Positions 4,740 through 40,030 of a stretch of DNA of 64,000 nt are shown here, one piece after another. Numbering within the stretch: position 1 is the stretch's first letter; the number at the start of each line of letters is the position of its first letter. The position numbers and the translations under genes are program-made. The notes under the pieces were generated by a model. The model saw only the letters and a program-made list of their open reading frames with translations. It ran no database searches and had not been told where the DNA came from. The DNA lies in the NCBI RefSeq assembly GCF_004010195.1, contig NC_057753.1:3804993-3868992 (forward strand), written 5' to 3'. Source of the DNA: Chiloscyllium plagiosum (lineage: Eukaryota).

Positions 4740-6300
4740 GAGTCTTCTATGAGGCAAATGTTGTTCCTGTGTTCAAGAAAGGGAATAGGGAAATCCCTGG
4801 GAATTACAGACCTATCCGTCTGTGGTAACCAAGGTGCTGGCAAGGATTCTGAGAAGTTGGATGTATGATTATTTGGAAGAACATAGTTTGATTGAAGATA
4901 GTGAGCGTGGCTTTGTGAGGAAAAGCGCAGCAGGTCAGGCAGCATCCAAGGAACAGGAGAATCGACGTTTCGGGCACAAGCCCTTCTTCTTGTGCCCGAA
5001 ACGTCGATTCTCCTGTTCCTTGGATGCTGCCTGACCTGCTGCGCTTTTCCAGCAACACATTTTCAGCTCTGATCTCCAGCATCTGCAGTCCTCACTTTCT
5101 CCTCGTGGCTTTGTGAGGGGCAGGTCATGCCTCACAAGCCTTATTGTGTTCTTTGAGGATGTGACAAGACAAGTTGACAAAGGTAAAGCAGTGAATATGG
5201 GGTATGTGGATGTCAGTAAGGCATTTGAAAAGGTTCCCCATGGTAGGCTCATTCAGACAGTTAGGAGGTATGGGATACAGGGAGATTTGGCTGTTTGGAT
5301 ACAGAATTATTGACTGAAGACAGCGAGTGGTAATGGATGGAAAGTACTCCGCCTGGTGGTCGATGACCAGTGGTGCTCCACAGGGATCTGTTCTTGGGCC
5401 CCTGCTCTTTGTAGTTGTTATAAATGACTTGGATAAAGAAGTGGAAGGGTGGGTTTGTAAGTTAGTAAGATGACACAAATGTCAGTGGTGTTGTAGATAG
5501 TGTCGAGGGTTTTTGCAGGCTACAACAAGACATTGACATGGACAGGATCCAATGCTGGGCTGAGAAGTGGCAGATGGAGTTCAAACTGCATAAATGCGAA
5601 GTGATTCATTTTGGAAAGTCGAGTTTGAATGCTGAATACAGGATTAAAGGCAGGATTGTTGGCAGTGTGGAGGAACAGCGGGATCTTGGGAGTCCACGTA
5701 CATAGATCTCCCAAAGTTGCCACCCAAGTTGATAGGGTTGTTAAGAAAGCAAACACTAATGAAAGTGTTTTGGCTTTCATTAACAGGGTTATCGAGTTTA
5801 AGAGCCGTGAGGTTTTGCTGCAGTTCTATGAAACACTGGTTAGTCCACACTTGGAATATTGTGTTCAGTTTTGATTGTCTCATTATAGGAAAGATATAGA
5901 TGCTTTAGAGAGGGTGAAGAGAGGTTGAGTGAGCGTGATTTAATAGAGGTATACAAGGTAATGAGAGGCATGGGATAGAGTGGATAGCCAGAGACTTTTC
6001 CCCAGGGCAGAAATGACTGTCACGAGGGGGCATAATTGTAAGGTGATTGGAGGAAGGTACAGGGGAGATGTCAGAGCTAGTTCTTTACCCAGAGTGTGGT
6101 GGGTGTGTGGGGTGCACTGCAAGCGGTGGTCCCGAGAGTCAGAGACATTCGGGACATTTAAGCGACAGCTGGACACGCACATGGATGGCAGTGAATTGAG
6201 GGGAGTGAAGGTTAGTTTGGTCTTAGATTAAGCTAAATGCTCGGCACAACATTGCATGCTGAAAGGCCTGTACTGTGCTGTGCTGTTGTATGTTCTGTTT
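4740..6300 (+). mobile_element. CR1 LINE ORF2 reverse-transcriptase/3' fragment
   Basis: GRSCLTSLIVFFEDVT...YVDVSKAFEKVPH, GAPQGSVLGPLLF and PHLEYCVQF. Stops and frameshifts present. Confidence 0.88.
4921..5103. mobile_element. Family A fold-back hammerhead/pLTR mini-element
   Basis: Near-perfect inverted arms. 15-bp TSD cgtggctttgtgagg at 4906-4920 and 5104-5118, inserted in CR1. Confidence 0.9.
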
Positions 6301-6544
6301 TCTAGTTGTTTGAGGTGAGGATGAAGGAGATAAGGTAGAGCGATAGAGCGAGAACTCTTCAAAAGCAACCATCTTACATATAGATATTAACTGGGTAACA
6401 CTGATCGACTGGATTAAACACAAAGTTAATTTATTGACTATTGAGAATATTGGCATTGTTACAAAGTTAGAAATGATTAAAGTCAGAATAAATAGATTGC
6501 AATGAATACTGTTCAATCTGAGATATGGTTAACAGCAAAAATCC

Positions 6545-7825
6545 ATTCACTGCAGTTATTTGTAAACACATTCTTATCTCAGCTGGTCAGATGACCTTGA
6601 GGAACCCTTCCCACACTCTGAGCAGGTCTCTCCCCACTTGTATCGACTTGAGGGAATTGGAATGTGTTACGACACCGGGGTAAACTCCCCCTACTAATTT
6701 AAACCAGTAACACAGAAAAGATGTATCCCGTGCGGTAATCTGTGAATACTTGAGAGGCCAAGAACTATCCCAAAAGATCATTATTTAAATTAAAAATTAG
6801 CAATTTTATTTTTTAAAGTCGAACAGAGAAATAATTAACTAACAACTATTTACAACTCCTGTCTCTAACCTATCTTTTACTTTCTCCTCTACAATACTAG
6901 TCCGATAAAACCCCTGATTAAGATTTACCGAAAAATTCAAATTTCAAAACCAGCCAGCTGTCGAAACTTCCCTTTGTATCTTCCTCTGTAGACATGCTGT
7001 CCAGGTCGGTGTCGATGTTTCTCTCTGTCCAAACGCCTTCTCTAGACAGGTACCTCTCCGAGAGTTCTCACTAGCAGCCTACATCTGTTGGTCTTTTCAC
7101 AGTTCTCCCTCTATTGTTCACGTTTTCCTGGTCTTATACCCACCCAAAAAACCGGATTATGTCATTGGCTTTTAGTATTGTCAATATACTCAATTCAAAC
7201 TCGATTGGAGTTGGGTATGTTTTGGAGTATCATTTAAACTGATTGGCCTAATTCAAATTTGTTTTGGTCTCCAGGCAACCAGCTACACGAGCTGCTGGGC
7301 CATTTGCATCTTGTTCGGAACACTTGGCGCTGTCAGGTAGTTCTGCTCGTTTTTAACTCTCGTAAAGGCATGGTACACTTCCACATCTTCTTAACAGAAA
7401 GTCTGAACTTAGTCCCACCATGACGGCACTGGAACAGTCTCTCAGCAGCGTGAACGTGTCGATGGGACATCGGAGCCTCACTGCTTTTAAAGCAGCCCCT
7501 GCAATCCAGGCATTTAAAAGATCAATGAGAACTTGCTGGTGTCTCAGCAGACTGGATGGCGAATGAACCCCTTCCTATATACGGAGCAGATGAACTGCCT
7601 GTCTCCCTGTGTGACTGCCCAGATCAGCTTTCGATGGCTAACTGAATCACTTCCAACCATCCCTACATTCCAAAGACTTTTTTTTCCCAACAGAAATACT
7701 TCCGTGTTCAAGGTTCGATAACATTTAAGTTTGTGATAAATCATGTCTCCATCACCTCTCATGATGTAATGTTTGTTTTCAGTGGCCCGACTGCAAATCC
7801 TTCCAACCTAATGCCCCCATTTGGT
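6545..7825 (-). pseudogene. Decayed C2H2 zinc-finger paralogue, split by a solo LTR
   Basis: Minus strand gives TQGDRQFICSVYRKGF, SLLRHQ and SGER..CSECGKGSSRSS. The end gtttacaaataactgcagtga and the upstream aggatttgcag motif are shared with the other ZNF copies. Confidence 0.7.
6665..7396 (-). mobile_element. Solo LTR
   Basis: tgttac...ttaaca termini, flanks gaatg/gaaag (imperfect TSD), AATAAA on the minus strand. A related fragment lies at ~30440-30652. Confidence 0.7.
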
Positions 7826-8279
7826 GTCTTTTAAACAAAAGGAATAACAAACTATGAGTGGGAATTCATAAAGCATACAGGAGTAGTGAAATTAAGCTGA
7901 ATGAGTCTGGTAGTTTATGGAAGGGCTGCTGGGTTGTCACAAAAACACATATTGTTCAGGAATGTCCATCTAGAAGGGGAATCCATCAACCAGTCTGAAC
8001 CTACATACGAATCTGACCTCAATGGGAGAAGAGAGGGAGGAGAGAGAGGATGAAAATATGATGGTCTGTTTATACACTTCTAAAGCGTGACCACTTTGGC
8101 CTGAAGTCTCATCTGTTTACATATAAACAAAAGGCCTCTCAACATCCTTTTCACCTCTGTACAAAACCAGTCTGATCGGAGCCCAGCCCGGTTTATTACC
8201 CCTCTGAGAAAAATCAAAGACAGTCTCCTTGAGCCAAGGAACAGCTTTTAGGAAAAAAGAGGGGACTAGCTTTTTGACA

Positions 8280-8790
8280 CTACAGTATGGAAACAGGCCA
8301 TTTGGCCCCAACAAGTCCACACTGACCCAATGAAGAATAACCCACCTCCTGCCCTATTACTCTACATTTCCCTGGACTAATGATGGAGGGCTTTTGCCCG
8401 AAATGTGTTTTTTCTGATCCTCGGATGCTACCTGACCTGCTATGTTTTTCCAGCACCACTCTAATGCACCTAACCTGCACATCCCTGAGCACTATGGGTA
8501 ATTTAGCATGGCCTATCCACACTAACCTGCACATCCTTGAGCACTATGGGTAATTTAGCCTGGCCTATCCACCCTAACCCGCACATCCCTGAGCACTATG
8601 GGTAATTTAGCATAGCCTATTCACCCTAACCTGCACATCCCTGAGCATTGTGGGCAATTTAGCATGGTCTATCCACCCTAACCTGCACATGCCAGAGCAC
8701 TATGGGTAATTTAGCATGCCCAATCCACCCTAACCTGCACATCACTGAAGATGATGGTCAATTTGGCGTGGCCAATCCACCCCAACCTTT
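8280..8790 (-). mobile_element. HE1-type SINE 3' part with an internal tandem expansion and a family A insertion (~8382-8460)
   Basis: tggaaacaggcc...aacaagtccacac SINE tail, the insert gggcttttgcccgaaa...ttccagcaccact, then the 52-bp array. Confidence 0.8.
8467..8787. repeat. Minisatellite of six ~52-bp units derived from the SINE body
   Basis: Unit caccctaacctgcacatccctgagcactatgggtaatttagcatggcctatc starts at ~8467, 8518, 8570, 8622, 8674 and 8726. Confidence 0.92.
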
Positions 8791-9125
8791 AGATGTGTAA
8801 TTCGTCCCATGTAAACATGGTGGTCAGTGCATGCGTTCCCATTGAAGATGGCAGTGGTAACCTGGGCCTGAGTAGAGCGAGAGAGTCCGTCATTCTGGTG
8901 TTGTGCTGCAAGGTGAAACTATTTGTTTTTTTTCTGTCAGCTGCAGACTTCCCCACGTATTTATGAGGCTTTCGGGTCCAAGTCACTGCCATTATTCCTT
9001 CCCCCAGTGACCTACTCTGTTGTTTTGCTGAAGTCTCCTTTTCCTTTCCCACTCCAGGCCGTTTCACTCACGGTCTGGCACAGCGCATGTTTGTGTCACT
9101 CCGCTGCAATGCATGGAGCCCGCGT

Positions 9126-10207
9126 GTTGGAGCAATAGCTATTTTGGAATGAATCGCGCATACAAGTCTTGAGTACTGACACCTTTATTCGCGACATGTC
9201 GTGGGGAGAGAAAGGGCAACCAGTTAGATCGGATGGCCCCGAATCACTCCAACAGGTCACAGAGCTTCACGAGACTTTATAGCGTACAATTAGCTGACCA
9301 TTAACTACAGGATAATATGCAGGCACAGGACAACTTGCATAACATCAGCCCCAGACACATAGTGCCTGGTCGCAACCGTTAGTAACTGATAAGCAGGTGA
9401 TAGTAGACAATAGCTTCACTCATTTGCCCCAAAGGAGCCTTCCACATCCATCAAAGTTTCACCTGCACTTCCACACGTGTCATTTACTGTATCCGTTGCT
9501 CCCGATGCAGTCTGCTCTACGTTGCGGAGACAGGACGCCGACGTGCAGAGCGCTTCAGAGAACCTCTCTGGGGCACCCGCACCAACCAACCCCACTGCTC
9601 CGTGGCCAAACACTTCAACTCCCCCTCCCCCTCTGCCGAGGCCATGCAGGTCCTGAGCCTACTCCATCTCCACACCCTAACCACCCGATGCCTGGAGGAA
9701 GAACACCTCTCATTCCACCTTAGACCCTGCAACCACACGGCATCAATGTGGACTTCACTAGTTTCCTCATTTCCCCTCCCCACACCTTCTCCCAACCTCC
9801 CCCTCCCCCTCTGCCGAGGCCATGCAGGTCCTGGGCCTCCTCCATCTCCACACCCTAACCACTCGATGCCTGGAGGAAGAACACCTCTCATTCCACCTTA
9901 GACCCTGCAACCACACGGCATCAATGTGGACTTCACTAGTTTCCTCATTTCCCCTCCCCACACCTTCTCTCGGATGCTGCCTGACCTGCTGTGCTTTTCC
10001 AGCAACACACCCTTGAACTCTGATCTCCAGCATCTGCAGTCCTCACTTTCTCCTACAATGACTTCATTTGTTTATCGACTATCTGCGCAGCTACAAGACC
10101 GACCGTTTTTCAAGCAGACATGGGAAAACAAGCTTTGTTCAGGGCAGGCGCTGAATATGAGGCAAAATGGTTTCCACACATTTAGTATGTGACAAAATGG
10201 CTTCCAC
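9126..10207 (-). mobile_element. Probable solo LTR interrupted by a PLE fragment
   Basis: tgttgg...ttccaca termini and AATAAA on the minus strand near 9185. The end caaaatggcttccaca recurs at ~40490-40502. Confidence 0.45.
9427..10055 (+). mobile_element. Penelope-like element 3' fragment (family A; GIY-YIG plus pLTR tail) with internal 178-bp duplication
   Basis: Same sequence as 51470-51840 (VAKHFNSPSPSAEAMQVL...EEEHLSFHL). Ends in ccagcatctgcagtcctcactttctcc. Confidence 0.85.
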
Positions 10208-10539
10208 AATTCTCCCACACCATGGCAACAACCAGAGCACATTCTCCCTCTGCTGAGGATGCTGGGTAAATACCCAGCGATTAAATGGGGCTGAGGTTGA
10301 GCAGAAAAAAATTACCTTTATTTTGTTTTCCAAGTCCTTTTGTAACCACAGCTGCAAGATGTAAAAATGAGTGAATCGGTTGACACAGCAAATAAGGTGC
10401 ACCATAGTTCTGCCTTCGGTGTAAAGAATATCAGAACAAACTTGTTTGATATTTTCTTCTCAATCTGTTCCCAGACATTTATTACACATCTCTGGAGCAG
10501 GTGAGACTTGAACTCAGGCCTCTCTTGGCATCATGGTAG

Positions 10540-11075
10540 CCCGCAAATCTACCAACACACTGAAACAGCTACTGATGAACCTAAAGGACCATGTACCAAC
10601 AACCAGCAAAACCATTGTCATTTACAAAATACCCCGCAAGGACCATAACTAACACTACATTGGACAGACAGGCAGATAACTGGCCACCAGGATACACGAA
10701 CACCAACTAGCCACCAAAATACATGACCAGCTATCATTAGTATCCTTACAACACATCCATCCTGGGACAGGCTAAACAGAGACGCACACGGAATTCCTAG
10801 AGGCCTGGCATTCAAACCGGAACTCCATCAATAAACATATTGATTTGGACCCCATTTACCAAACTCTGAGAAAAAGAACCGGAAATGATATCACCCACCT
10901 TAACAGACCAAGACACACAGAGAGCAAGTGGGACGGAGCACCAACGTTTCACCGGAGGCTCACTGACGATGTTACCTAGCATGATGACGAAACGTCTGAG
11001 CACAAACCTGCCAACTCAGCAAGCAAACTTACAACCTGAACCTCAACCTAAGCTACAAATCTTCTCAGAAATCGC
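10540..11075 (+). mobile_element. Penelope-like element 3' fragment (family C)
   Basis: Translates with stops to VIYKIP...HYIGQTGR.LATRIHEHQLAT (GIY-YIG), followed by a hammerhead motif. Confidence 0.82.
10958..11001 (+). ncRNA. Minimal type I hammerhead ribozyme motif (family C)
   Basis: GCUCA-CUGACGA-U-GUUA(ccuagcauga)UGAC-GAAA-CGUC-UGAGC. Stem I is 5 bp, the core is complete, and helix III is the palindrome ACGU. Confidence 0.8.
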
Positions 11076-11122
11076 AAAGTAAAAGCTGCTAATTTTTGAC
11101 CTACGGATAGTAAAATCACAGT

Positions 11123-11225
11123 CTAAATTAGAGTGGTGCTGGAAAAGCACAGCAGGTCAGGCAGCATCCAAGAAGCAGGAAAATCCACGTTTCATGCGAA
11201 AGCCCTTCACCAGGAAAGCCCTTGC
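11123..11225 (-). mobile_element. Family A pLTR mini-insertion
   Basis: 16-bp TSD atagtaaaatcacagt at 11107-11122 and 11226-11241. Confidence 0.85.
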
Positions 11226-11449
11226 ATAGTAAAATCACAGTATCCCGACAATGCAGAAAGACACGATGGAGCCCCATTGATTCTGCACAGACTCTCGAAA
11301 CAGCATCCCACCCCCACCCCGTCATCCCACAAGGGGTCTTTCTTAACTTTGGCTAACCCACCAAACCTGAATATCCTTGGACACTACAGGACATTTTTAG
11401 CAATGGCAAATCTATCTAACACGCACATCATTGGACTGTGGGAGGAAAC

Positions 11450-12022
11450 TGGATTTGAAGGTGGACAATGTTAAAAATCACACAACATCAGGTTATAGTC
11501 CAACAGGTTTATTTGGAGGCACTAGCTTTCAAAGCGCTGCTTCTTTATCAGGTGGTTGTGCAGCAGGACCATACGGCACAGAATTTATAGCAACAGGATT
11601 GCAGTGTCATGGAATGTAATATTAAACAAATTTAGTTTGAGTCTTTCACCGTTTAGAGTGGTCATGTTAGTTTCAGTTCCTTCATCTGTAAATCCCAGAA
11701 CTGTTTTAAGGTTATGTTCTCAAGGTATGATTTGGAGGTGTCAGTGTTGGTCTGACGTGGACAATGTTAAAAATCACACAACACCAGGTTATAGTCCAAC
11801 AGGTTTATTTGGAGGTATGTATTGTATAAATTATATATAACAATCCTGGTCTTTTTCAATACATACTTTCAGTTGCATGACACTGTAAACCTTTGCTTTA
11901 AACTCTGTGTCTGACAATCTTATTCTCCACAACCACCTGATGAAGGAGCAGCGCTCCGAAAGCTAGTGCTTCCAAATAAACCTGTTGGACTCTAACCTGG
12001 AGTTGTGTGATTTTTAGCTTTG
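11450..12022. mobile_element. Family B pLTR complex: two antisense copies followed by one sense copy, nested in an HE1 SINE
   Basis: gtggacaatgttaaaaatcacacaac at ~11461 and ~11757, with a sense copy ending gttgtgtgatttttag. SINE pieces lie on both sides. Confidence 0.78.
11934..11968 (+). ncRNA. Minimal type I hammerhead ribozyme motif (family B)
   Basis: CAC-CUGAUGA-A-GGAGC(agc)GCUCC-GAAA-GCUA-GUG. Helix III is the palindrome AGCU. Confidence 0.82.
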
Positions 12023-12221
12023 AACAGTAGTTGCTATCTCAGCTCAGATAGTGCATGTAAGGTGTGAAGTTAAATTACCTGGAGGAAACCCATGCAGACA
12101 TAGGGAGGCAAACTCCACCCGTCACCTCAAGGCTTAAATCGCTGGCAAGGTGAGGCAATACTGTCAAGCCACCATGGGCAGCACGGTGTCAGGTTGCCCC
12201 TGTCCTGTAGTAGTACGCCTT

Positions 12222-13408: not shown

Positions 13409-13493
13409 GTTTGTCTGTGCAGTATTTTGTGTTACCGAGCCAAGAGGTTGTCTAGATGCAAGGGCGGAATGGTGGCCGTAAAAGGGACATGAT

Positions 13494-13674
13494 TTGGAGA
13501 TGCCGGTGTTGGACTGGGGTGTCCAAAGTTAAAAATCACACAACACCAGGTTATAGTCCAACAGGTTTAATTGTGTACTCCACCACCACCTGATGAAGGA
13601 GCGGCGCTCCGAAAGCTAGTGCTTCCAAATAAACCTGTTGGACTATAACCTGGTGTTATGTGATTTTTAACTTT
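13494..13674. mobile_element. Family B fold-back hammerhead/pLTR mini-element
   Basis: Inverted arms. 16-bp TSD gtaaaagggacatgat at 13478-13493 and 13675-13690. Confidence 0.9.
13587..13621 (+). ncRNA. Minimal hammerhead ribozyme motif (family B)
   Basis: CAC-CUGAUGA-A-GGAGC(ggc)GCUCC-GAAA-GCUA-GUG. Confidence 0.82.
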
Positions 13675-14086
13675 GTAAAAGGGACATGATGGGAACGAGG
13701 AGGGCGCATACACCAGCGTTCCGGGTGATCCCACGTACAAAGAAGCAGAATGTGAGAGGCGAATAAGGTGTCAGTATTGTCCTGTCTATAGTTAACAGAG
13801 GAATGGATGACACTTTCAGAAACAGTTAAACCAAGGTGCCAAAGTGGTATTATCACTGGACTAGCAACCCAGAGATAATTTTAATGTTCTGGGGAGCCAG
13901 GTTCAAGAGTGGAATTTGAGATTTTAAAAAAACACTGTGAATGATGATCATTTGGAGAAAAAAAAAATCTGGTCCACTAATCTCCTTTCAGCATGAGGAG
14001 AAACAAACCTGGGCTCATGGCATTGATCGAAGCTCCCATGAAGTCTCATGACATCAGGTAAGATGGGCAAGCATATTACCTGTTGA

Positions 14087-14262
14087 GGAGAAAGTGAGGT
14101 CTGCAGATGCTGGAGATCAGAGCTGAAAATGTGTTGCTGGAACAGCGCAGCAGGTCAGGCAGCATCCAGGGAACAGGAGAATCGACGTTTTGGGCATAAG
14201 CCCTTCTTCAGGAAACCTGAAGAAGGGCTAATGCCCTAAACGTCGATTCTCCTGTTCCCTGG
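14087..14262. mobile_element. Family A fold-back mini-element (CUGAAGA variant)
   Basis: Centre cttcttcagg-aaa-cctgaagaag. 14-bp TSD atattacctgttga at 14073-14086 and 14263-14276. Confidence 0.9.
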
Positions 14263-14631
14263 ATATTACCTGTTGATCATACCAGGACACACTTTGTCCA
14301 CTACCTAAGCTGATAAATCATATTCTTCCATGTCAAATGCTTGGATGGAGTACTGAGGATGCCAAGAGAACAAGACATACTTCAGGTGAGAGTTAAATTG
14401 ATGATCTTCTTGACCATGATAAAAGCACGTTTGGTCCACTGACATCCTTCAGGGAAGGAAAACTGACATTCTTATCCTGTCTGACCTAAATGTGACACCA
14501 CGTTCCCACCATGTGCATGACTCTTAACTGCCCTCTGAATCCATCAAAAAGTGTCAACACAATTAAACTGTGTGGATGGCCTGTATTGTGTAAGCTACTG
14601 GAATCTATGACGGCAAACACAGTCCTGTCTT

Positions 14632-16880: not shown

Positions 16881-18383
16881 CCTGTCCTCGTGCTAGTTTG
16901 AGGTCTCACATAGCCAAGGAACCTCTCGCTGTCTCTCTCAATTTGGAGAATGGCCAGCATATCCTCAAAGTGTGGGATGGCAACACCACTACTGGCCACA
17001 TTGGTTGAGTCCTAAAGGACATTGCCGTTAGACAGGGTGTGCAGCAGGTAGTGAAGGAACTAATGAGAGAGGCAAACATATCTTACCTCATCTTCACCAA
17101 TCTTTCTGTCACAGGTACATCTATCCATGACAGTATTGGTTGAGAGTGACCACTGCACAGTTCTTTGACACATTCCCTACTCTATCGTTACCATAAAGTC
17201 AGGGGACTAACCCCGATCTAATGAAGAGTTCAGGACATCATGCCAGGCTCAGCATTGAGCACACCTAAAGAAGAGGTTTTAACCTGGTAAAGGAATGCAA
17301 GTAGACCATTTGTGTACCAAACAGCAAAAGCAGCAAGTGATAGATAAATCTAAGCAATCCCACAGTTAGGAGATCACATCTCGTCATGAATGTTGGGGGA
17401 CAATTAAATCACTCATTGGAGAAGGTGGCTGTGTAAATATTCCCATACTCAAGGATGAGGATGCCAGCACGTCTGTGCTGAAGCGCTCAGAGAACACTGT
17501 TTTGGATGACCCCAGCTTCACAGGGAGGTTGAATGTGGGAGGTCAGTCAGTCGTGCATTAAGATACTTGAGTCTCGCGGTAACCGAGGAATGGGTGAGAG
17601 TTCCAGCTGCAGATGTTTGCAAAACTAGAGTGGAGGTGGGTCACGTGACTGAGATGAAAACAGGCAGTTTTGGTGCTGATGGGTGTACGTTGTTGTCAGC
17701 TCATCTCAGTGTGAAATACTTGATTACAGTTGTGAACAGCCTGTTTCAGATTCGCACAGTCACCAGGCAGAGGGATGGAGTCGGTGGTTAGGAATTTTTC
17801 CCAGAGTTTAATTGGAGGAAATCCCTGCTCATCCTGCGCCGGATGTCACACAAATCAGGGCAGCGGGTAACTTGGAGGGGGTTTTGGGGGTGTTGGTGTT
17901 TCACATAGACCTTCTACCCAAGACATTCGGGCTGGTGAAGGCTGAAAGTTTGAGAGATTCTGTCAGACTCCTGGTTGAGTTGTGCACTTATTCAATCCCT
18001 CTGCTTCACCTCTTTCTCGTTGTTCCTATTTTCTCTGTGTCTTCACTCCCATAGAGGCCAGAATCCTGCGCAGGTCCAGGCCAGGTGACAGATTCCACTC
18101 TCTGATCGACAGGAGTGAACCACTTGGGTTTTATGACAGCCCAGCAGCCTTTGTTCACTTTTTGATCGTGTATCATGAATCCAACAGATTAGCAAATTCG
18201 TTTAACTCTCGCAACCAACTTGTGGGTTTTTTTTAATGGGCACCGTCTAACTCCCCTTGTTAAATCAATTTTACAGGGAGTTAGAAGGGCAGGATTTGCA
18301 GATGGGAAACTGACACCAACCACCGCCACCAGGATTTGATGTCGTTCCCTGAATCGTGACCCGAATATAGTCAGATTTGGAAC

Positions 18384-18908
18384 ATGGAAGGAGAGAGCGC
18401 CACTCACGGTGGTGACAAGCCATACCCATTTTCGCAGCGTTTCAGTGATTCGTCTGGACTGACCCAACACAAGCGTAGTCACACCAAGGAGAAACCATGG
18501 AAGTGTGGGGATTGTGGGAAGGGCTTCAGATCCCCATCTGAGCTGGAAACCCATCGGCGCATTCACAGTTCGGAGAGACCGTTCACCTGCCCTGACTGTG
18601 GGAAGGGTTTCACTCGGTTAACGTCAGTGCTGACACACAAGCTGGTTCACACCGACGAGAGACCTTTTAAGTGTCCAGAGTGCGGGAAGTGCTTCAAAAG
18701 TTCCGGACAACTGCTGAGCCATCAACGTGTTCACACTGATGAGAGACCGTTCCGATGTTCTCACTGTGGGACTGGTTTTAGGCGATCGTCTAACCTCAGT
18801 ATACACCAGCGAATTCACACTGGGGAGAGGCCATTCATCTGCTCCGAATGTGGGAAGAGGTTCACTCGGTTGTCTCACCTACTGACACACAAGGGAGTTC
18901 ACAAGTAA
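18384..18908 (+). CDS. C2H2 zinc-finger protein, 174 aa (5 complete fingers plus 1 degenerate, no KRAB/SCAN)
   Basis: Five CxxC-x12-HxxxH units with TGERPF/TDERPF-type linkers. Acceptor ttttacag at 18275-18276, in-frame stops upstream of the ATG, and stop TAA after VHK. Confidence 0.9.
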
Positions 18909-19450
18909 CTGCTCACTGTTGGGATTTTGCTTCTAATTGTAACCAGCACTGAACTCATCTATTGGAATCTGAATCCACTGATGATATTAACTCCAGATCT
19001 CGTCGATTTGATTTTCTTTTTTTGCTTAGTATTAGCAATGAGCTTTGTGTTCAAGACGCAGTGTGTTTGTTCTTCGTAATATCTCGAATACGAGTTTGTT
19101 CCTTTTGCACACCTCTCCTTTTCCCCTGTCTCTTCCATCCTCAACAATTGCAAGGGGTTTATGGAGCTTCATTGAAACAACCTGTCCAGCTGCCTCTGCT
19201 GTTTCCCTGTCTTCCCTTGAGCTGAGCTGTCCCTAAATCTGCCCTTGTTGGTACCCGCTACTTGCATCTTTCTCTGGTTTCCCTCCTACATGCTGTCATA
19301 CACTGTGTGTGATTGGCGATCTTTATTGGTTGTCAGTCTTTGAAGGGAGCCCACCATTCAAACATTGTTTTTCCCACCGACCTCTCACTCTCGTCAATCC
19401 TGCCCAACTCTGTCCTTGCCCCTGTTGAAGACAGCTCTCCTCAATTGAAA

Positions 19451-19627
19451 ATCACCAGAGCACCAAGTTATAGTCCAACAGGTTTAATTGGAAGCACTAG
19501 CTTTCGGAGCGCTGCTCCTTCATCCGAAAGCAAGTGCTTCCAATTAAACCTGTTGGACTATAACCTGATGTTGTGTGATTTTTAACTTTGTACACCCCAG
19601 TCCAACACCGGCATCTCCAAACCATGA
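19451..19627. mobile_element. Family B fold-back mini-element
   Basis: Arms meet inside the hammerhead (ccttcat|ccgaaagc). 14-bp TSD ctcctcaattgaaa at 19437-19450 and 19628-19641. Confidence 0.9.
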
Positions 19628-24905: not shown

Positions 24906-25015
24906 CTTCCTGATGAAGGGCTCATGCCCGAAACGTCCTGCTCTTCAGATGCTGTGCTTTTCCAGCACTGCGCTCTTGACTCTGATCTTCAGCATCTGCA
25001 GTCCTCACTTTCTCC
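24906..25015 (+). mobile_element. Family A pLTR mini-insertion with intact hammerhead core
   Basis: CTGATGA-A-GGGC(tcat)GCCC-GAAA-CGTC at 24910-24937, ending cagtcctcactttctcc. Confidence 0.82.
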
Positions 25016-28476: not shown

Positions 28477-30435
28477 CATAGAAACATATCAAACAGGGAC
28501 AGGCTATTCAGCCCTTTGAGCCAGCACCACCATTCAATATGATCATGACTGACCATGCAATCTCAGTATCCCATTCCACCTCCATACCCCTTGATTCCTT
28601 TCGCCGCAAGGACCATGTCCAGCTCCTTCTTAAATATATCTAATGAACTGGCCCAACAGCTTTCTGTGGGAGTGAATTCCACAGGTTCACGAGTCTCTGA
28701 GTGAAGAAATTCTTCCTCATCTCATTCTTGAAAGCTTACCCCTTATTCTTCGACTCCAACCCCTCATTCTGTACTTCCCAAACATTGGGAAAATTCTTCC
28801 CATATCTAGCCTGCCCAGTCCCATCAGGATTGTACAGGTTTCTGTGAGATCCCCCCTCATTCTTCTAAATTCCAGTGAATACAAGCTCAGTTGATCCAGT
28901 CTTGCCTCATATGTAAGAACTGCCATCCCGGCAATCAGTCTGGCTCAGTAGTTAATGCTGCTGCCTCACAGCGCCAGAGGGTTCAATTCCAGCCTCGGGC
29001 GACTGTCTATGTGGAGCTTTCACAATCTTCCCATGTATGTGTGGGTTTCCTCCAGGTGCTCTGGTTTCCTCCCACAATCCAAAGATGTGCAGGTTAGGCC
29101 ATGTTAAGTTGCCCATAGTGTTCAGGAATGTGTAGGTTAGGTGTATTAGTCCAGGGTAAATGGGGAGGGGAATGGGTTTGGAGGGTCGGTGTGGACTGGT
29201 TGAGCCAAATGGCCTGTTTCCACACTGCAGGGATTCTGTGATGATTAGCTGGAGTCCCTCAATAGTAAAACATGTCCTTCCTCAGACTAGAAGACTAAAA
29301 CTAGAAGACAATACTCAAGGTGTGGCCTCAACAAGGCTCTATATAACTGCAGCAAGACATCCTTACTCTGATAATCAGATCCCCTTGTTATGAAACAGAG
29401 TATGCCATTAGCTTTTGATTGCCTGCATCAAAACATGCCAACATTCAGCAACTGTTCCACTATGACACCCAGGTCTTGTTGCAACTCACTATTTCCTAAA
29501 CTGCCACCATTCAGATAATAATTTGCCTTTTGTGACCAAAGTGGATAACTTCACATTTATCCACATTATATTGTATTTGTCAAGTATTTGCCCACTCAGC
29601 CAGTCTATCCAAGGTATTCCTGATGAAGGGCTTTTGCCCAAAATGTCGATTTTACCGCTCCTTGGATGCTGCCTGAGCTGCTGTGCTTTTCCAGCACCTC
29701 TCTAATCTAAACTCTGGTTTCCAGCATCTGCAGTCATTGTTTTTACCCAGTCTATCCAAGTCACCCTGCGGACTCTTACCATCCTCCTCACAGCACACAC
29801 TGCTACCCAGCTTAGTGTCATCTGCAAATTTGGAGGTATAGCATTCAAATCCTTTGTCCAAATCATTAATGTATTTTGTGAACAGCTGAGGTCCCAGCAC
29901 TGAACCCTGTGGCACCCCACTCGTCACTGCCTGCCTCTCTGAAAAGGACCCATTTATTCCAGTCTGCCAACCAGTTCTCCATCCATGTAAATACATTACC
30001 TCTGATACCATAAGCTTTAATATTTCTTACTAAGCTCTTATGTGCAACCTTGTCAAAAGGCTTTTGGAAGTCCAGATTCACACTTACTGATTCACCATTG
30101 TCTACTGTACTGATCACATCCTCAAAGAAAATTCAGAAGACTTGTCAAGCATAATTTTCCTTTAGTGGATCCATGCTGACTAGTTCCACTTCTGCTTTCA
30201 AAATGCTGTTATTGCATCCTTAATGGTTGGCTCCATCATTTTCCCCACTACAACTATCAGGCTAACCAGTGTATAATTACCCATGTTCTCGCCCTCCTTT
30301 TTTAAAAGAGTGGGGTTACATTAGCTACCCTCCAGTCCTTTGGAACATGTCTAGAGTCTGCAGAATGTTGGAAAATGATTATCAATACATCCACTATTTC
30401 TAGGGCCACTTCCTTAAGTATTCTGGGATGCAGAG
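28477..30435 (-). mobile_element. CR1 LINE ORF2 fragment with nested HE1 SINE (~28935-29243, +) and family A insertion
   Basis: VTSGVPQGSVLGPQLF...SKFADDTKLG and LDFQKPFDKVAH. Confidence 0.85.
29614..29746 (+). mobile_element. Family A pLTR mini-insertion
   Basis: Starts gtattcctgatgaagggcttttgccc. 14-bp TSD ccagtctatccaag at 29600-29613 and 29747-29760. Confidence 0.9.
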
Positions 30436-33141: not shown

Positions 33142-33366
33142 CTCGGCAAAAATGAGGACTGCAGATGTTGGAAACCAGAGTCTAGATTATAGTGGTGCTG
33201 GAAAAAAACAGCAGATCAGGCAGCATCCGAGGAGCAGGAAAATTGACGTTTTGGGCAAAAGCCCTTCATTCATTCCTGATGAAGGGCTTTTGCCCGAAAC
33301 ATTGATTTTCCTCCTCCTCAGATGCTGCCTAACCTGTTGTGCTTTTCCAATACCACTATAATCTAG
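33142..33366. mobile_element. Family A fold-back mini-element
   Basis: Centre gcccttcatt-cattcctgatgaagggc. 14-bp TSD aaactgagaatcaa at 33128-33141 and 33367-33380. Confidence 0.9.
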
Positions 33367-34179
33367 AAACTGAGAATCAATCTGAAACAGAACCACAAAC
33401 AGGTTGAGGGATACACAAACATTTCTAGTGGCTGGGTGCAAAACTGGTGATCATGAAGAGCACTGTGTCACGAGTAAAGCTTTTTGGACATTTTGGGCCA
33501 CCAAAGATGGTTTTGATACTCAGCTCGGCTGAGGTGGAGAAATGTAGTAATGGAAAGACTGTTTAGTATAGGTAAAACGATAGCTCTGCTCACTCAGTGC
33601 AACATGGACATGCCATGTCTAACTGTATGCACTTGTTGCCTCTGCTGTACATACTCCCTAATTCACTATACAACCGTTCGTATGAATTCTCGCGCATAAC
33701 ATTGTAGGAGAACAACAACCTCACCTGGGCACATGATTCTCACATCCTCTTTATGAGAACAGTCGCCTTGATGACCCAAGTGTGCTGAAGGACATTCCCA
33801 GAGAAATGATTCATTTCCAGAACACTACACATCTTTCAACCAAACCGGGCTTGATCCTGGTCCATAAGAGGAACGAAGTGTCAGTTCCAGTGCATTCCCA
33901 CAACCCAGTTGTTTGCAAACCACTTCAGTGACTATCACATCATCGCAAACTGATCTCCATGTGCCTTCATAGTAAATCTCTGCCTGACCAACACAGCAGC
34001 TTCCACTCTCTGCCAGCCTTCACTGCAAGTGTTCCGCTAGACAATCATACAAATGATTATACTTTAAATGCCCACTCACTTCTTTGTTCAATCCAGCATA
34101 GTGTACAAAGGCTCAGGTAGAAAGGCTTTTCCACTTTCATGTGACATGCAGTAAAGCATGAATGGGAATGTCTGACAAC

Positions 34180-35837
34180 ATTGATAGTTCAGCCCTCAAC
34201 ACTATTATCTACTTGAGACTGATTACTAAACTTAGTGATCTTGGACTAAGCCCCACTCTCTGCAACTGGATCCTCAGTTCTCTGATGCACAGGCCACAGT
34301 CAGTGAAGATTGGGGACAATATTTCAACCTCACTAACAGTCAACACTGGAGACCCCCTTGGGGTACCTATTCAGCCCCCTACTATACTCGCTGTACACCC
34401 ATGACTGCATCAACAAATACCAGACTAATGCCATTTACAAGTGCGCTGATGACAATACCATAGTCGGTCAAATCTCAGATGGTGATGAAACAGACAGGAA
34501 GTGGAAGACCTGGGGAAATGGTGCAATGAGAACAACCTAGCTCTCAATGCAGGTAAAACCAAGGAACTCATTATTGACTTTTGGTGGGATGTTACTCATG
34601 CCCCCCCAACACACACACACACACATTAACAGCATGGAGGTGGAACGAATGGAGAGTGTCAAGCTCCTGGGAGTGGTCATCCCCAACAAGCTTTCTTGGA
34701 CTCTCCATGTGGACACCCTGGTTACAAAGGCCCAACAACGTCTCTTCTTCCTCAGGCAGCTGAGGAAATTTGGCATGGTGGTGATTACCATTGCCAACTT
34801 TTATATTTGTGCCATCAAGAGCGTTCTGTCTGGATGTATCACTACCTGGTATGGCAACTGTGCCATTCAAGATCAGAGACAGTTACAGACAGTGGGAAAC
34901 TCGGTCCAACCTCCCATCTATAGAATCCATCTACCAGGCCCGCTGTCAAGGAAAGGCCACCAGCATTCTCAAAGATCCATCCCACCCCGGCAATGTTTTT
35001 CTACAACCTCTACCATTAGGGAGAAGGTACAGAAGCCTGAACACACGCACCAGCCAGTTTTGCAACAGTTTCTCCCCTACTGTTGTTAGAATACTGAATG
35101 GACTCTCAAACTCTTAATATTCACCTGTCCCTGTGTTTTTGTTTTTGCCGCTGTTTACCTATTATTTACTTATCTGTGCTACTTAACTTGGTAATTCTGC
35201 TGGTATTGCTCACAAGACAAAGCTTTTCACTGTGCATCTTCTTGGACTCTTCATGTGGACGCACTGGTTACAAAGGCCCAACAACGTCTCTTCTTCCTCA
35301 GGCAGCTGAGGAAATTTGGCATGGTGGCGATTACCATTGCCAACTTTTATATTTGTGCCATCAAGAGCATTCTGTCTGGATGTATCACTACCTGGTATGG
35401 CAACTGTACCATTCAAGATCGGAGACAGTTACAGACAGTGGGAAACTCGGTCCGGGCAATCACAAAGGCCAACCTCCCATCTATAGAATCCATCTACCGG
35501 GCCAGGTGTCAAGGAAAGGCCGCCAGCATTCTCAAAGATCCATCCCACCCTGGCAATGTTTTTCTACAACCTCTGCCATTGGAGAGAAGGTACAGCAGCC
35601 TGACCACACGCACCAGCCAGTTTTGCAACAGTTTCTCCCCTACTGTTGTTAGAATACTGAATGGACTCTCAAACTCCTAATATTCACCTGTACCTGTGTT
35701 TTTGTTTTTGCCGCTGTTTACCTATTATTTACTTATCTGTGCTACTTAACTTGGTAATTCTGCTGGTATTGCTCACAAGACAAAGCTTTTCACTGTGCAT
35801 CGGTACATGTGACAATAAATTCAATTCAATTCAATTT
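34180..35837 (+). mobile_element. Rex1/Babar-like LINE RT 3' part with duplicated 3' end
   Basis: SSALNTI...[19 protein letters not shown]...KCADD and KAQQRLFFLRQLRKFG. Ends with aataaa and a (ttcaa)n tail. Confidence 0.8.
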
Positions 35838-35949
35838 AAGACTGAGTCAATTCTTTTAGCAAGAATGCACAGCAAAGAATTATTTCAATAAGTCTTCTGG
35901 CATCAACATCTCAATGCTCTCCTTTACTCATTGACTATCATTTTATTGG

Positions 35950-37110
35950 AGGGTGGCAAATATTATTCCCTTGTTCAAGAAAAGGAATAGGGATAACCTG
36001 AGAATTACAGACCAGTCAGTCTTACGTCTGTGGTGGGCAAATTATTAGAGAGGATACCGAGAGACAGGATTTATCATTATTTGGAAAATCATAGTTTAAA
36101 TGGAGCATGGCTTTGTGAGGGGCAGTTCATGCCTGACAAGCCATTTTGAATTCTTCGGGGATGTGACAAAATACATTGATGAAGCTAGAGCAGTGGATGT
36201 GGCGCTCATGGATTTTAGCAAGGCATTTGATAGGGTTCTCCACAGTGGCTCATTGAGAAAGTAAGGCGACATGGGATGCAGAGAAATTTGGCTGCCTGGA
36301 TACAGAATTGGCTGGTCCTTAGAAGACAGAGGGTGGTAGTATTCAGCCTGGAGCTCAGTGACCAATGGTGTTCTGTTGGGATTTATTCTGGAACCTCTGC
36401 ACTTTGTGATTTTGTGGTTTTGATAAATAACTTGGAGAGGAAGTAGAAGTGGAAGTGCCAATGACATGAAGGATAATGGAGCTATAGATATTGTGGAGGG
36501 CTGTTGTTGGTTGCATTGGGATATTGATAGGATGCAGAGCTGGGCTGAGAAGTAGCAGATGGAGTTCAACCTGGAAAAGTGTGAACTGATTCATTTTTGG
36601 ATGGCCAAATTTGAATGCAGCTTACAGGTTTAAAGGCAGGAGTCTTGGAAGTGTGGACCGTGGGATCCACGTCCATAGATCCCTCAAAGTTGCCACCCAA
36701 GTTGTTAAGAAGGCGTATGATGTGTTGGCTTTCATTAGCAGGGGAATTGAGTCTAAGAGCCATGAGGTTATGGTGCAGTTCTACAGAGCCTTGGCTAGAC
36801 CACTTTTGGAATATTGCATTCAGTCCTGGTGACCTCATTATAGGAAGGGTGTGGAAGCTTTAGAGAGGGTGCAGAGGAGATTTACCAGGATGGTGCCTGA
36901 ACTGGAGGGCATGCCTTATGAAGAAAGGCTGAAGGTGCTAGGGATTTACTCATTGGAACAAAACAGAATGAGAGGTGACTTGATAGAGGTGTACAAGATG
37001 ATGAGAGACAGAGATAGATAGAATGGATAGCCAGAGACTTTTTCCCAAGGTGGAAATGGCTATCATGAGGGGGCATAATTTTAAGGTGATTGGAAGAAGG
37101 TTTAGGGGAG
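35950..37110 (+). mobile_element. CR1 LINE RT/3' fragment
   Basis: aattacagaccagtcagtcttacgtctgtggtgggc (NYRPVSLTSVVG), MDFSKAFD and RPLLEYCIQ. Confidence 0.85.
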
Positions 37111-37619
37111 ATCCAACGCCTCCTCTACTGTGATATGGACTGTCCCCAAGATATCACCACTAACTTCCCCAAACTCCCAAGTCATCATGTCTTTCTCCAT
37201 GCAGGGAGGCCAGTTGTAATACGATCAGGTATGATTCGGAGGGATAGAGTCATTGAGATGTACAGGACAGAATGAAACCCTTCGGTCCAACTCGTCCATA
37301 CTGATGATGGTGGAATTCAACTTTTCCAATATTAACTTTGGTATTTATGAGGTGAAAAGCTTTGAGGTCTCAGAATTCTTCAAATGCATTGAGGAGAGCT
37401 TAAAAATGAGTTTCACATTGAGGGCTGTACAAGAGAGGGCTCTCCTGAATTTAGTTTTACGTATATGGGTTCAGGAGTGGTTGAAATATCATTGGGAGAC
37501 TATTTTGCAGACAGCAATAAAAACTCTGTGATTGTTGTGGTAAAGGACAAAGATATGCATGAGGTCAAAGTTCTAAACTGCAATGCGGCTGATTGTATTA
37601 AGATCAGGTATGATTGAGA

Positions 37620-38560
37620 GTCATAGAGTCAGAGAGATGTACAGCACAGAAACAAACCCTTTGGTCCAACTCATCCAGGCTGACAGGATATTGTGAAATA
37701 ATCTAATCCCATTTCCCAGCACTTGGTCCATATCCCTTTAAACCCTTCCTACTCATAAACCCATCCAGATGCCTTTTAAATGTTGTACTTGTCCCATCAT
37801 TTCCTCTGGCAGCTCATTCCATACCCGCACCAGCCTCTGTGTAAAAACGTTGCCCCGTAGGTCTTTTCTTTTTAATATTTCCCTTCTCACCCCTTAGGTC
37901 CCGTTTAAATCTTTCCACTCTCACCTTAAACCTGCACCCTCTATTTCTAGACTCCCACAACCCAGGGAAAACACCCTGTGGGCTTTTGCCCAAAACGTCG
38001 ATTTTGCTGAAGCTCCTCGGATGCTGCCCGAACTGCTGTGCTCTTCCAGCACCATTGATCCAGAATATGGTTTCCAGCATCTGCAGTCATTGTTTTTACC
38101 CTGTCTATTTACCCTATCCATGCCCCTCATGATTTTATAAACCTCTATAAGGTCACTCCTCAGCCTCCAACACTCCAGGGAAAACAGCCCCGGCCTATTC
38201 ATCCTCTCCCTTAGCTCAAACCCTCCAACCCTGGCAACATCCTTGTAAATCTTTTCTGAACCGTTTCAAGTTTCACAGCATCCTTCCGATAGGAAGGAGA
38301 CCAGAATTGCAAGCAATATTTGAAAGTGGCCGAACCAGTATCCTATACAGCTGCAACATGAACTGCCAACTCTTGTACTCAATACTCTGACCAATAAAGC
38401 ATACCAAACGCCTTCTTCACTATCCTATCTACCTGCGACTCCACTTTCAAGGAGCTATGAACCTGCACTCAAAGGAAGAGTCCCTACGACCTTACCATTA
38501 ATTGTATAATTCCTGTCCTGATGTGTCTTTCCAAAACGCAGCACCTCACATTTATCTTTG
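37620..38560 (-). mobile_element. CR1 LINE 3' fragment with family A insertion (~37979-38097, +)
   Basis: GLFSLE..RLRSDLIEVYKIMRGMDRVN. The insert gggcttttgccc...cagtcattgttttt is flanked by accctgt. Confidence 0.82.
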
Positions 38561-38639
38561 GTCAGAGTGGGACATTCAAGGTAACGTGCTGCAGTAAAGA
38601 TAAAGCGCGGAACACCTATATCTTGTGAATCCCGGATCT

Positions 38640-40030
38640 CGAGCAATATACAGGATTGGATGAAGGAAAGTAGGAAAGCTTTGTGGCTAACATAGGGGGC
38701 TCAAGACAGCAACAACCTTCCGTGAGTACAGAATGCATACGGGTGAAATTAAAAAGGAAATAGGCAGAGCAAAAAAGGGGTTACGAAAGGATAATGGCAG
38801 GGAAAACCATATAACATTTACAAGTATTTTAGTGGTGAAGGGATAACTAGGAAAAGAGGAGTGCCCATTAAGGACCACAGTGATAAGTTGTGAAGGAAGC
38901 CAGAAGATGTCGGTAGGTTCTAATTTAATATTTTGTGCCAGTTTTCACAATTGAGAGTGATGATATGGGTTTAAAGAAACAAGATGAAGGACGTTGACAC
39001 ATTTAAAGAAAACAAAAACTATAGCGAGAGAGGAGTTTCCCAGTGGTCTGGCCGGATTCAAAATTGATAAACCTGAAGGCTGGATGACAGGTATTTCAGG
39101 CTACTGAGTCTGATTAGGAAAGATAATAAGGGTGCTGGCAATAATGTTCAATTCCTCTCCGGCCCAGGAGAGGTGCCAGAGGACTAGAGAACAGCCAATA
39201 TGCTACCGTTATGCAAGAAGGGAACACGGTATAAACCTGGAAACAGGGCGGAAGTGTGTACTGCAGATGCTGGAGAGAAGAGTCAAGATTAAAGTGGTGC
39301 TGGAAAAGCTCAGCAAGTCAGGCAGCATCCGAGGAGCAGGAAAATGGACGTTTCAGGCAAAAGCCCTTCACCAGGAAAGAGGCTGATGAAGGACTTTTGC
39401 CCGAAACATCGATTTTCCTGCTCCTTGGATGCTGCCTGACCTGCTGTGCTTTTCCAGCACCACTTTAATCTTGACATAAACCAGGAACCCCCCCCCCCCC
39501 TAATGGTGGGGAGATTACTGGAAGCAATGTTACAGGACAGAATTCGTGTGCACTTGGAATGGCAGGGATTAATCAAGAACGGTCAGCATGATTTGATTAA
39601 CATGATATCACGTTTGTCAAAATTGCCTGGATTTTCTGAAGAGATCTCCAAGTGTCGAGATGCATTTTATTGAGTCCACCTGGATTGCAGCATGGTTTTG
39701 ATAAGGTCCTGCATGGGAGACTAATCAAGAACGGTCAGCATGATTTGATTAACATGATATCACGTTTGACAAAATTGCCTGGATTTTTTGAAGAGATCTC
39801 CAAGTGTCGAGATGCATTTTATTGAGTCCACCTGGATTGCAGCATGGTTTTGATAAGGTCCTGCATGGGAGACTGATAGCTAAGGTAAGATTCGATGGGA
39901 TAGAGAAACTTATCTTCCCGAATTCTCTGAAGCAGACGGGCCAACGAAATTCAAGGGTTGATTTTGTGACTGGAAGTATACGTCCAGAGGGCTTCTGCGC
40001 GGGTCAGTGCTGGGGAGCTGTTGGGGTTTA
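38640..40030 (+). mobile_element. Old CR1 ORF2 fragment with internal 152-bp tandem duplication
   Basis: MVGRLLEAMLQDRI..HLE..GLIKNGQH and FDKVLHGRLIAKVR. Confidence 0.72.
39245..39475. mobile_element. Family A fold-back mini-element
   Basis: Inverted arms around cttcaccagg-aaagagg-ctgatgaagg. Imperfect 14-bp TSD ataaacc(t/a)ggaa(a/c)c. Confidence 0.87.

What the first reader, a model, noticed from the sequence alone, without database searches (positions are those of the whole stretch)
4921..39475. Fold-back architecture with the inversion junction fixed at the ribozyme
Seen: copies at 4921, 13494, 14087, 19451, 33142 and 39245 (and 61514) consist of an antisense pLTR joined head-to-head to a sense pLTR. 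The junction lies within ~20 nt of CTGANGA or inside the core, for example cttcttcagg-aaa-cctgaagaag and ccttcat|ccgaaagc. One arm always reaches the full terminus (cagtcctcactttctcc-type in family A, caccggcatctccaa in family B) while the other arm is shorter. Single-arm copies (24906, 29614, 50649, 54083, 61895) also begin within ~15 nt 5' of CTGATGA rather than at the predicted cleavage site. Inference: the hammerhead fold marks where reverse transcription starts, stalls or switches template, in two unrelated families.
Basis: partly seen in the sequence, partly recalled or inferred. Interest (0 to 1): 0.72.

Follow-up and report, generated by a model that had tools for sequence, protein, structure and literature searches.

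The report
Penelope stubs end at capped start
These short mirror-image and single stubs of Penelope-type jumping genes do end just in front of a small hammerhead ribozyme motif, but the end point lies about 30 bases behind a TATA-type box and often carries one extra G, so it likely marks the capped start of the element's RNA rather than a stall at the ribozyme, and the two mirror halves were likely copied separately from the two cut ends of the target DNA.

Summary
The copies are 3' ends of GIY-YIG Penelope-like elements (PLEs). In genomic samples, arm 5' ends fall within 9 nt upstream of the hammerhead core in 113/188 (A), 60/122 (B) and 35/46 (C) arms, but only 2/99 in a fourth hammerhead family, D. 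In D, head-to-head junctions favour -23. The edge sits about 30 nt behind a TATA-type box in all four families. An untemplated G precedes it genome-wide (A: 5,592 G vs 1,868 A, control 54:46); a small pooled test missed this. So the edge is likely the capped RNA start, reached by run-off. Pairs carry one target duplication and exactly one tailed arm (56/61, 41/43, 12/13). Either arm reaches further 5' (27:25, 16:25, 4:6), which argues against simple fold-back and for priming at both target strands. The layout is published (PMC3846280, PMC8557442); I did not find the cap and two-end reading in six literature searches. This scan has reached the same reading before, on this and other genomes. No RNA 5'-end data.

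The parts
4919..5103 (.). Family A head-to-head insertion: tail-less arm 4919-4989 (-), tailed arm 4989-5103 (+), 15-bp target duplication
13487..13677 (.). Family B head-to-head insertion: tailed arm (-) stops at +36, tail-less arm (+) starts at -21; 14-15-bp target duplication
14073..14276 (.). Family A head-to-head insertion (arms 14086-14214 and 14216-14272, ends -3/-1) between 14-bp duplications at 14073-14086 and 14263-14276; empty site seen in two other runs
19445..19626 (.). Family B head-to-head insertion, ends +2/+18, 2-nt overlap at the junction, 14-bp duplication
33145..33367 (.). Family A head-to-head insertion, ends +3/-7, 14-bp duplication
39247..39475 (.). Family A head-to-head insertion, ends -12/0, 12-bp duplication
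61517..61650 (.). Family A tailed arm (-) plus a very short sense arm, imperfect duplication of about 12 bp
   Evidence: second arm read directly
24907..25015 (+). Single tailed A arm starting at -3
29614..29747 (+). Single tailed A arm starting at -6, 14-bp duplication
50659..50737 (-). Single tail-less A arm starting at the core
54092..54172 (-). Single tail-less A arm starting at -5, 15-bp duplication with 7 extra bases
61898..61998 (+). Single A arm starting at -4
11102..11228 (-). Single tail-less A arm starting at -3, 16-bp duplication, 9 extra bases at the head
43089..43627 (+). Long A copy: decayed GIY-YIG-type frame, pyrimidine-rich 3' UTR, TATA-position box, hammerhead, tail-less end
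   Evidence: GIY-YIG match on sister copy L035
51743..52116 (+). Long A copy with the TTATCT box at 51991-51996 and hammerhead core at 52026; predicted RNA start near 52022-52023
   Evidence: start site inferred
11468..11727 (-). Long B arm (reaches -186) with TATAAA at 11589-11584, 38 nt upstream of the core at 11551
11727..12026 (.).
10748..11081 (+). Family D (Poseidon-type) 3' end with hammerhead at 10963; member of the control family
55282..55503 (.). Family C head-to-head insertion (ends +5/-2); older relative of A

Best explanation
The stubs are 3' ends of GIY-YIG Penelope-like retrotransposons whose 5' ends pile up about 30 bases behind a TATA-type box, and they are likely complete DNA copies that ran off the capped start of the element's RNA, with the two halves of each mirror insertion likely primed separately from the two cut target strands. 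Inferred steps: (1) RNA polymerase II starts at -4/-5 (A, C), about -8 (B) or -18 to -23 (D); in A-C this happens to be the hammerhead's front edge. (2) The element's protein, a predicted dimer, nicks both target strands 12-16 bp apart. (3) One 3'-OH primes reverse transcription at the tail end (about +120), the other at the tail-less site (about +85), on the same RNA or a sister RNA. (4) Each copy runs towards the cap, often copying the cap G, or stops or is trimmed earlier. (5) The two cDNA ends are joined head to head, blunt, by short overlaps or with a few extra bases; if only one primer is extended a single arm results. Long copies would come from read-through RNA copied from its downstream pseudo-LTR. 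Shown: coordinates, counts, duplications, box spacing, extra G. Inferred: promoter activity, cap, two-strand priming, joining.
For: End pile-up 113/188 A, 60/122 B, 35/46 C against 2/99 D. Box plus 30 predicts -4 (A0), -6 (A1, A2), -8/-10 (B), -3/-4 (C), -18 to -23 (D) (spacing per copy). B ends lie further upstream than A ends (at or beyond -8: 26/73 vs 12/119, p 3e-5). In A the edge moves with the box: base -5 kept in 13/42 short A0 copies (box at -34) vs 13/16 short A2 copies (box at -36), p 0.0009. Genome-wide D pairs: core-to-core gap 0-29 nt, 33; gap 30-59 nt, 126. By eye, one arm ends at -23 in 10 of those 33, and at -23 +/-1 in about 15 of the 50 listed of the 126; 14-15 more of the 50 are perfect mirrors centred there; only 4 of 33 have both arms within 5 nt of the core (15 of the 33 parsed by script). 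Extra G: A0 5,592 G vs 1,868 A at -5; T-preceded subset about 2,400 vs 785 (from 43 and 42 of the first 100 listed); control boundary at -2, 54 G vs 46 A of 100 listed of 651. D: 37 of 100 listed of 148 (G) vs 13 of 100 listed of 109 (A) are off-template at both -24 and -25, about 55 vs 14. Exactly one tailed arm in 56/61, 41/43, 12/13 pairs; tail-less arms end mostly at +79..+93 (A), +80..+89 (B), +70..+80 (D); tailed vs tail-less arm further 5': 27:25 (4 ties), 16:25, 4:6 (2 ties), by 10 nt or more 17:13, 10:15, 2:4. Single arms are tailed or tail-less equally (38:36 A, 15:17 B). In vitro, Anolis Poseidon cuts and extends both strands and starts at two sites bounding the tail, and ribozyme mutants do not change the insertion product (PMC11167929).
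Against: No RNA 5' end was observed: one search lists no place where many molecules begin, and its reads come from other organisms and mostly from embedded copies. A pooled test on my sample found no G excess (A 18 vs 18.5 expected, n 64; B 6 vs 4.1; C 4 vs 3.5); the signal appears only at -5 in A0 (5 of 6 non-template bases, of which 1 is target-derived and 2 may be arm-derived) and genome-wide. The control itself is slightly G-rich (1.2:1), and flanks of the genome-wide hits were not read. In A-C the predicted start coincides with the 5' edge of stem I, so these families cannot separate the two ideas alone; -23 in D is also the 5' edge of a small hairpin and the centre of a 10-bp palindrome. 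The A box (TTATCT) is not a consensus TATA box. Most D arms run far past the predicted start (7 of 97 end in -10..-19, 4 of 89 in -20..-29). Many B ends lie at -1 to -3. The arms of a pair share variants (A0: 4 of 153 discordant vs 53 if independent), which fold-back or later conversion also predicts. In vitro the two strands showed no difference in start site, so the strict one-tail rule is unexplained. Only 18 of 74 short single A arms had a clean duplication (null 7 of 148). D. virilis Penelope has a TATA-less promoter starting well upstream of its ribozyme (PMC2377424), so the layout is not universal.
Confidence: 0.7

Rival explanations
1. The folded hammerhead (or protein bound to it) stalls the reverse transcriptase or triggers a template switch at its front edge.
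For: Ends in A, B and C pile up at the 5' edge of stem I; in PMC11167929 the ribozyme needs the protein to cleave, so the protein shapes this RNA.
Against: Family D has the motif but only 2 of 99 ends there; the edge moves with the upstream box within A although the ribozyme is the same; extra G; monomer folds do not form the hammerhead in 6 of 6 consensus folds; ribozyme mutants do not change the product in vitro.
Confidence: 0.1
2. Ends mark the RNA start, but the mirror is a true fold-back: one cDNA from the tail self-primes, the return strand is cut at the tail boundary by the endonuclease, and the centre is later trimmed unevenly (related to self-priming in PMC3846280 and endonuclease resolution in PMC8557442).
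For: Both arms share variants; the one-tail rule follows naturally; junction overlaps of 2 nt or more in 18 of 61 A, 12 of 43 B, 9 of 13 D pairs.
Against: The tail-less arm reaches 10 nt or more further 5' in 13 of 56 A, 15 of 41 B, 4 of 12 D pairs, in places by 100-200 nt, which needs one-sided deletions; tail-less single arms are as common as tailed ones.
Confidence: 0.15
3. The short copies descend from a few short non-autonomous master elements that happen to begin there, or the edge is an alignment artefact of the conserved ribozyme.
For: Upstream sequence varies among subfamilies; one B stub inside another repeat has been re-amplified (cluster B5, 3 copies).
Against: Junctions differ from copy to copy; upstream bases of short single arms fall to chance (0.27 at -6) while long copies of the same subfamilies stay at 0.75; target duplications abut the head in the single arms that have one.
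Confidence: 0.05

Closest known systems
Inverted-pLTR insertions of endonuclease-bearing Penelope-like elements (Adineta vaga Pen2a/Pen3a, PMC3846280, passages read; PMC8557442, passages read)
   Same: Head-to-head inverted pseudo-LTR, 30-40-bp tail at one end only, one target duplication round the whole unit, putative TATA and initiator in the pLTR.
   Different: Here the unit is often only the two ribozyme-bearing ends; duplications are 12-16 bp (8-10 bp there); junctions pile up at one point. Those papers propose self-priming on an antisense template and endonuclease resolution; the passages I read do not tie junctions to a start site.
Poseidon of Anolis carolinensis, PAc (PMC11167929; abstract, main text and start of Methods read; supplements not seen)
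   Same: Two fixed 3' ends bounding the tail about 110-125 nt behind the hammerhead; no trace of the ribozyme cut as a main end; family D reads as an open frame from the core, as PAc does (read directly).
   Different: The paper does not model the inverted structure or map in vivo 5' ends; it saw no strand difference in start site, whereas genomic pairs have one tail in about 93%.
Minimal type I hammerheads of metazoan PLEs (PMC4209133; parts 1-2 of 4 read, to the start of Methods)
   Same: CUGANGA core, extra base before stem II, palindromic stem III stub, short stem I; most copies single, some pairs on opposite strands 100-700 bp apart.
   Different: That paper proposes cleavage and circles as templates; here ends do not map to the cut site.
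LINE-1 twin priming and full-length insertions with a cap-derived G (recalled, no call)
   Same: Second target strand primes a second cDNA giving an inversion; extra G where the enzyme copies the cap.
   Different: In L1 the second primer anneals at a variable internal site and the pieces do not overlap; here both starts are fixed and 35-40 nt apart, so the arms duplicate each other.

Membership tests
EN+ Penelope-like element | C-terminal GIY-YIG endonuclease upstream of the pLTR | tested here: met
   A: GIY-YIG E 2e-4, just under Pfam's cut-off (L035); D: E 0.046 (L078); motif and position read directly. B and C: decayed fragments only, no Pfam hit.
EN+ Penelope-like element | Telomerase-like reverse transcriptase in the same single ORF | tested here: inconclusive
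   D: RVT_1 E 9e-8. A: fragments only, assembly gaps in all 5 long loci. No tree built.
EN+ Penelope-like element | pLTR with optional 30-40-nt tail, direct or inverted | tested here: met
   Two 3' end clusters about 36-40 nt apart in A, B, D. A 5' pLTR in tandem before an ORF was not found.
Neptune clade (A, B, C) | Zn-finger-like motif between RT and endonuclease | tested here: met
   CxxxxCxxC linker in A and in one B fragment (L204); criterion from PMC8557442; C judged by likeness to A only; no phylogeny.
Penelope/Poseidon clade (D) | No Zn-finger linker; ORF starts in the hammerhead | tested here: met
   no phylogeny
Minimal type I hammerhead | Core boxes, stem II, palindromic stem III stub, stem I | tested here: met
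   (stem I 2-4 contiguous bp); Rfam finds no hammerhead family in the window
Minimal type I hammerhead | Self-cleavage, as a dimer or with protein | not testable with these tools
   needs an assay
Non-LTR retrozyme | Head-to-tail tandem units each with a hammerhead | tested here: not met
   Copies are single or head to head; definition from 10.64898/2026.07.22.740005 (part 1 of 5 read)
MITE / DNA transposon | Symmetric terminal inverted repeats, fixed short duplication, identical centre | tested here: not met
   Arms unequal, centres differ per copy, duplications 12-16 bp
Pol II TATA/initiator promoter | TATA box about 30 nt upstream of a capped start | tested here: inconclusive
   Spacing and extra G fit; A box is atypical; no RNA 5' ends

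The most novel reading that the evidence does not exclude
PLEs integrate by two-ended target-primed reverse transcription on one capped RNA: a protein dimer starts one cDNA at each side of the tail from each nicked strand, and the genome's more than 100,000 mirror stubs are a fossil map of the RNA cap site. This one rule would explain the long-unexplained inverted pLTR, the one-sided tail and the mass of solo pLTRs, in both Neptune and Poseidon clades.
Probability: 0.55. Interest if true: 0.7.

Novelty: new variant of a known kind. Interest (0 to 1): 0.52.

Why it matters
How PLEs make their inverted repeats and one-sided tail is called undefined in PMC8557442, and the in vitro study leaves the later steps unvalidated. 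The genomic rules here (one tail per pair, either arm longer, ends at box plus 30 with an extra G) give exact predictions for the existing in vitro system and move the ribozyme out of the role of stall site. By extrapolation from 1.35 Mb the genome holds about 550,000 A, 160,000 B, 220,000 C and 80,000 D arms and about 125,000 short A mirror pairs, a large source of perfect hairpins that also mimic microRNA precursors.

Tried and rejected
DNA search of the genome with an A arm returned nothing because common words are skipped; I sampled stretches instead. Rfam: only sub-threshold microRNA-like hairpin matches. RNA runs: no RNA holder listed; laying reads gave no start or end peaks, so no evidence on the start site either way; run X21 laid nothing. 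Two different source RNAs per pair: rejected, arms share variants (A0 4/153, A2 0/38, A1 15/80, B 11/90 discordant vs 53, 13, 30, 36 if independent); 4 mixed A-B neighbours had no duplication. Ribozyme cut as an end: a small bump at +27..+30 in A (11 ends in 4 nt vs 13 in the 14 flanking nt, post hoc) and C, none in B; it overlaps self-complementary sequence, so unresolved. Splice acceptor at the edge: no AG in A and short copies share no upstream exon. Endonuclease cut at ATT: fits A only. Retrovirus-like jump from the cap to the RNA 3' end: no extra G in long copies (0 of 31 A0; about 93 G vs 95 A in D), so no support. Tandem 5' pLTR followed by ORF: not found among 152 A, 89 B, 53 D tailed arms or 5 long loci. 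C pairs gave no duplications (0 of 17) because my C reference lacked the tail. Dropped rows: arms under 80% identity, endonuclease-picked loci for A and C, reference B5.


Full report
Coordinates: 0 is the first C of CTGANGA on an element's sense strand; 'arm' is one copy of the ribozyme-bearing end.

1. Observation. All listed copies exist. Aligned to subfamily references, the seven mirror copies have arm 5' ends between -21 and +18, except the tailed arm of 13494 (+36); single arms start at -3 to -6. Each mirror has one arm with the full terminus. Mirrors are flanked by 12-16-bp target duplications. For the 14087 copy, one contig in each of two other runs joins 14072 to 14263 with 14 letters fitting both sides: the empty site. 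So that mirror was inserted as one unit. No listed piece spans its junction, and long reads were not checked.

2. What it is. The window lies in a 3.56-Gb assembly, shark-like by my recall of its repeats and by earlier notes; not tested. Family A is the 3' end of a GIY-YIG element: endonuclease frame, about 280 nt of pyrimidine-rich UTR, hammerhead, then an end at about +85-90 or, with a tail, about +125. A and B carry a CxxC linker before the endonuclease (Neptune type by the criterion in PMC8557442); C is an older relative of A; D lacks the linker (Poseidon type). No tree was built. All four have a minimal type I hammerhead with predicted cuts at +27 to +33.

3. Sample. 140 position-picked stretches of 10 kb, loci picked by exact 22-mers downstream of the ribozyme for B and D from the first 9 Mb of contig C1, and the window. 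After removing duplicates and arms under 80% identity: 285 of 298 A, 186 of 198 B, 107 of 145 C, 104 of 108 D.

4. The pile-up is real but not tied to the fold. Of arms reaching the core, 113 of 188 A, 60 of 122 B and 35 of 46 C end between 0 and -9; upstream the rate drops to mostly 0-10% per 10 nt (B has 13 of 62 in -10..-19). D has 2 of 99 (p about 1e-25 against A). In short single A arms the match to the reference is 0.68 at -4, 0.47 at -5 and 0.27 (chance) at -6, while long copies stay at 0.75-0.97, so this is no alignment artefact. Long copies show a conserved box upstream: TATAAA at -38/-40 (B), -33 (C), -48 to -53 (D), and TTATCT at -34 (A0) or -36 (A1, A2). Box plus 30 predicts -4/-6, -8/-10, -3/-4 and -18/-23. 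B ends do lie further upstream than A ends (26 of 73 vs 12 of 119 at or beyond -8), and the A edge moves one base with the box (13 of 42 vs 13 of 16 keep base -5). Genome-wide, D pairs with intact cores number 33 at gaps of 0-29 nt and 126 at 30-59 nt. Read by eye, one arm ends at -23 in 10 of the 33 and at -23 +/-1 in about 15 of the 50 listed of the 126; 14-15 more of those 50 are perfect mirrors centred at -23/-24, which a natural 10-bp palindrome there could also favour; 4 of 33 have both arms within 5 nt of the core. Most D arms nevertheless run far upstream.

5. Extra G. A reverse transcriptase that copies a cap leaves a G before the first base (recalled from L1). My pooled sample test was negative (A 18 vs 18.5 expected). 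Earlier notes reported such a G, so I counted genome-wide: in A0, where the template has C at -5, G stands there 5,592 times and A 1,868 times; T-preceded only, about 2,400 vs 785. At a control boundary (-2) the first 100 of 651 rows give 54 G to 46 A, and that boundary is about five times rarer. In D, rows off-template at both -24 and -25 number about 55 with G and 14 with A (37 of 100 listed of 148; 13 of 100 listed of 109). Flanks of these hits were not read, so some Gs may come from the other arm. Reads gave no direct start sites; loose ends in runs of other organisms fall at the same edge (2077-2079 on L027), which reflects embedded copies.

6. Not a simple fold-back. Among 61 A, 43 B and 13 D pairs (arm ends within 40 nt), exactly one arm is tailed in 56, 41 and 12; the other usually ends at the second fixed site. 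A single cDNA folding back must make the tailed arm the one reaching furthest 5'; instead it is 27:25 (4 ties), 16:25 and 4:6 (2 ties), and by 10 nt or more 17:13, 10:15, 2:4. Single arms are tailed or tail-less equally (38:36, 15:17). Duplications flank 52 of 117 pairs at a strict score vs 2 of 232 controls. Both arms come from one source: A0 arms differ at 4 of 153 variable sites, against 53 if independent and 4.9 from age; this fits one RNA read twice, but also fold-back or later conversion. Junctions show overlaps, blunt joins and short inserts (A 18, 16, 27 of 61).

7. Mechanism. Most likely: capped RNA from the pLTR promoter; two staggered nicks; priming at both strands from the two sites that bound the tail (both shown in vitro for Anolis Poseidon, PMC11167929); run-off at the cap; head-to-head joining. 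I put about 0.8 on the capped start, 0.65 on two-end priming, 0.7 on the whole as stated. Unexplained: the strict one-tail rule, why D rarely uses the short route, the atypical A box, and what the ribozyme does.

8. Known and new. The layout, tail, duplication and a TATA/initiator in the pLTR are in PMC3846280 (passages) and PMC8557442 (passages); minimal hammerheads in PMC4209133 (parts 1-2 of 4); pLTR promoters in PMC2377424 (passages) and PMC6765202 (passages). Six searches showed no paper mapping junctions to the cap site or modelling two-end priming for PLEs; subscription papers and supplements were not seen. The scan's own notes reach the same reading many times; they are not independent support. 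Verdict: real feature, known kind of structure, testable new mechanism; interest 0.52.

Noticed in passing
window 49268-50323: Single-exon rhodopsin-family receptor frame of 351 codons (7tm_1, E 1e-22).
   Followed up: no
window 18360-18908: C2H2 zinc-finger array, 5 or more fingers.
   Followed up: no
window 34541-35680: Two tandem copies of a frame matching ALKBH8_N (E 8e-9 for the second), probably the end of a LINE.
   Followed up: no
window 9407-10051: Family A endonuclease fragment with an internal duplication of about 170 nt, joined to the pLTR only at about +41, so the hammerhead is missing.
   Followed up: partly
   Followed up: partly
L291 and cluster B5: A B stub sits inside another repeat with a 20-bp duplication and has been re-amplified with it (3 copies in the sample).
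   Followed up: no
family D, -23 to -10: A short hairpin is conserved at the predicted RNA start in D subfamilies.
   Followed up: partly
family A references, about -190; family D1, about -278: Further clusters of aligned 5' ends (6 at -190, 8 at -278); may be reference edges or real stops.
   Followed up: no
window 19465-19566: Mirror stubs give sub-threshold matches to microRNA precursor models (E 1e-8) and could be mis-annotated as microRNAs.
   Followed up: no
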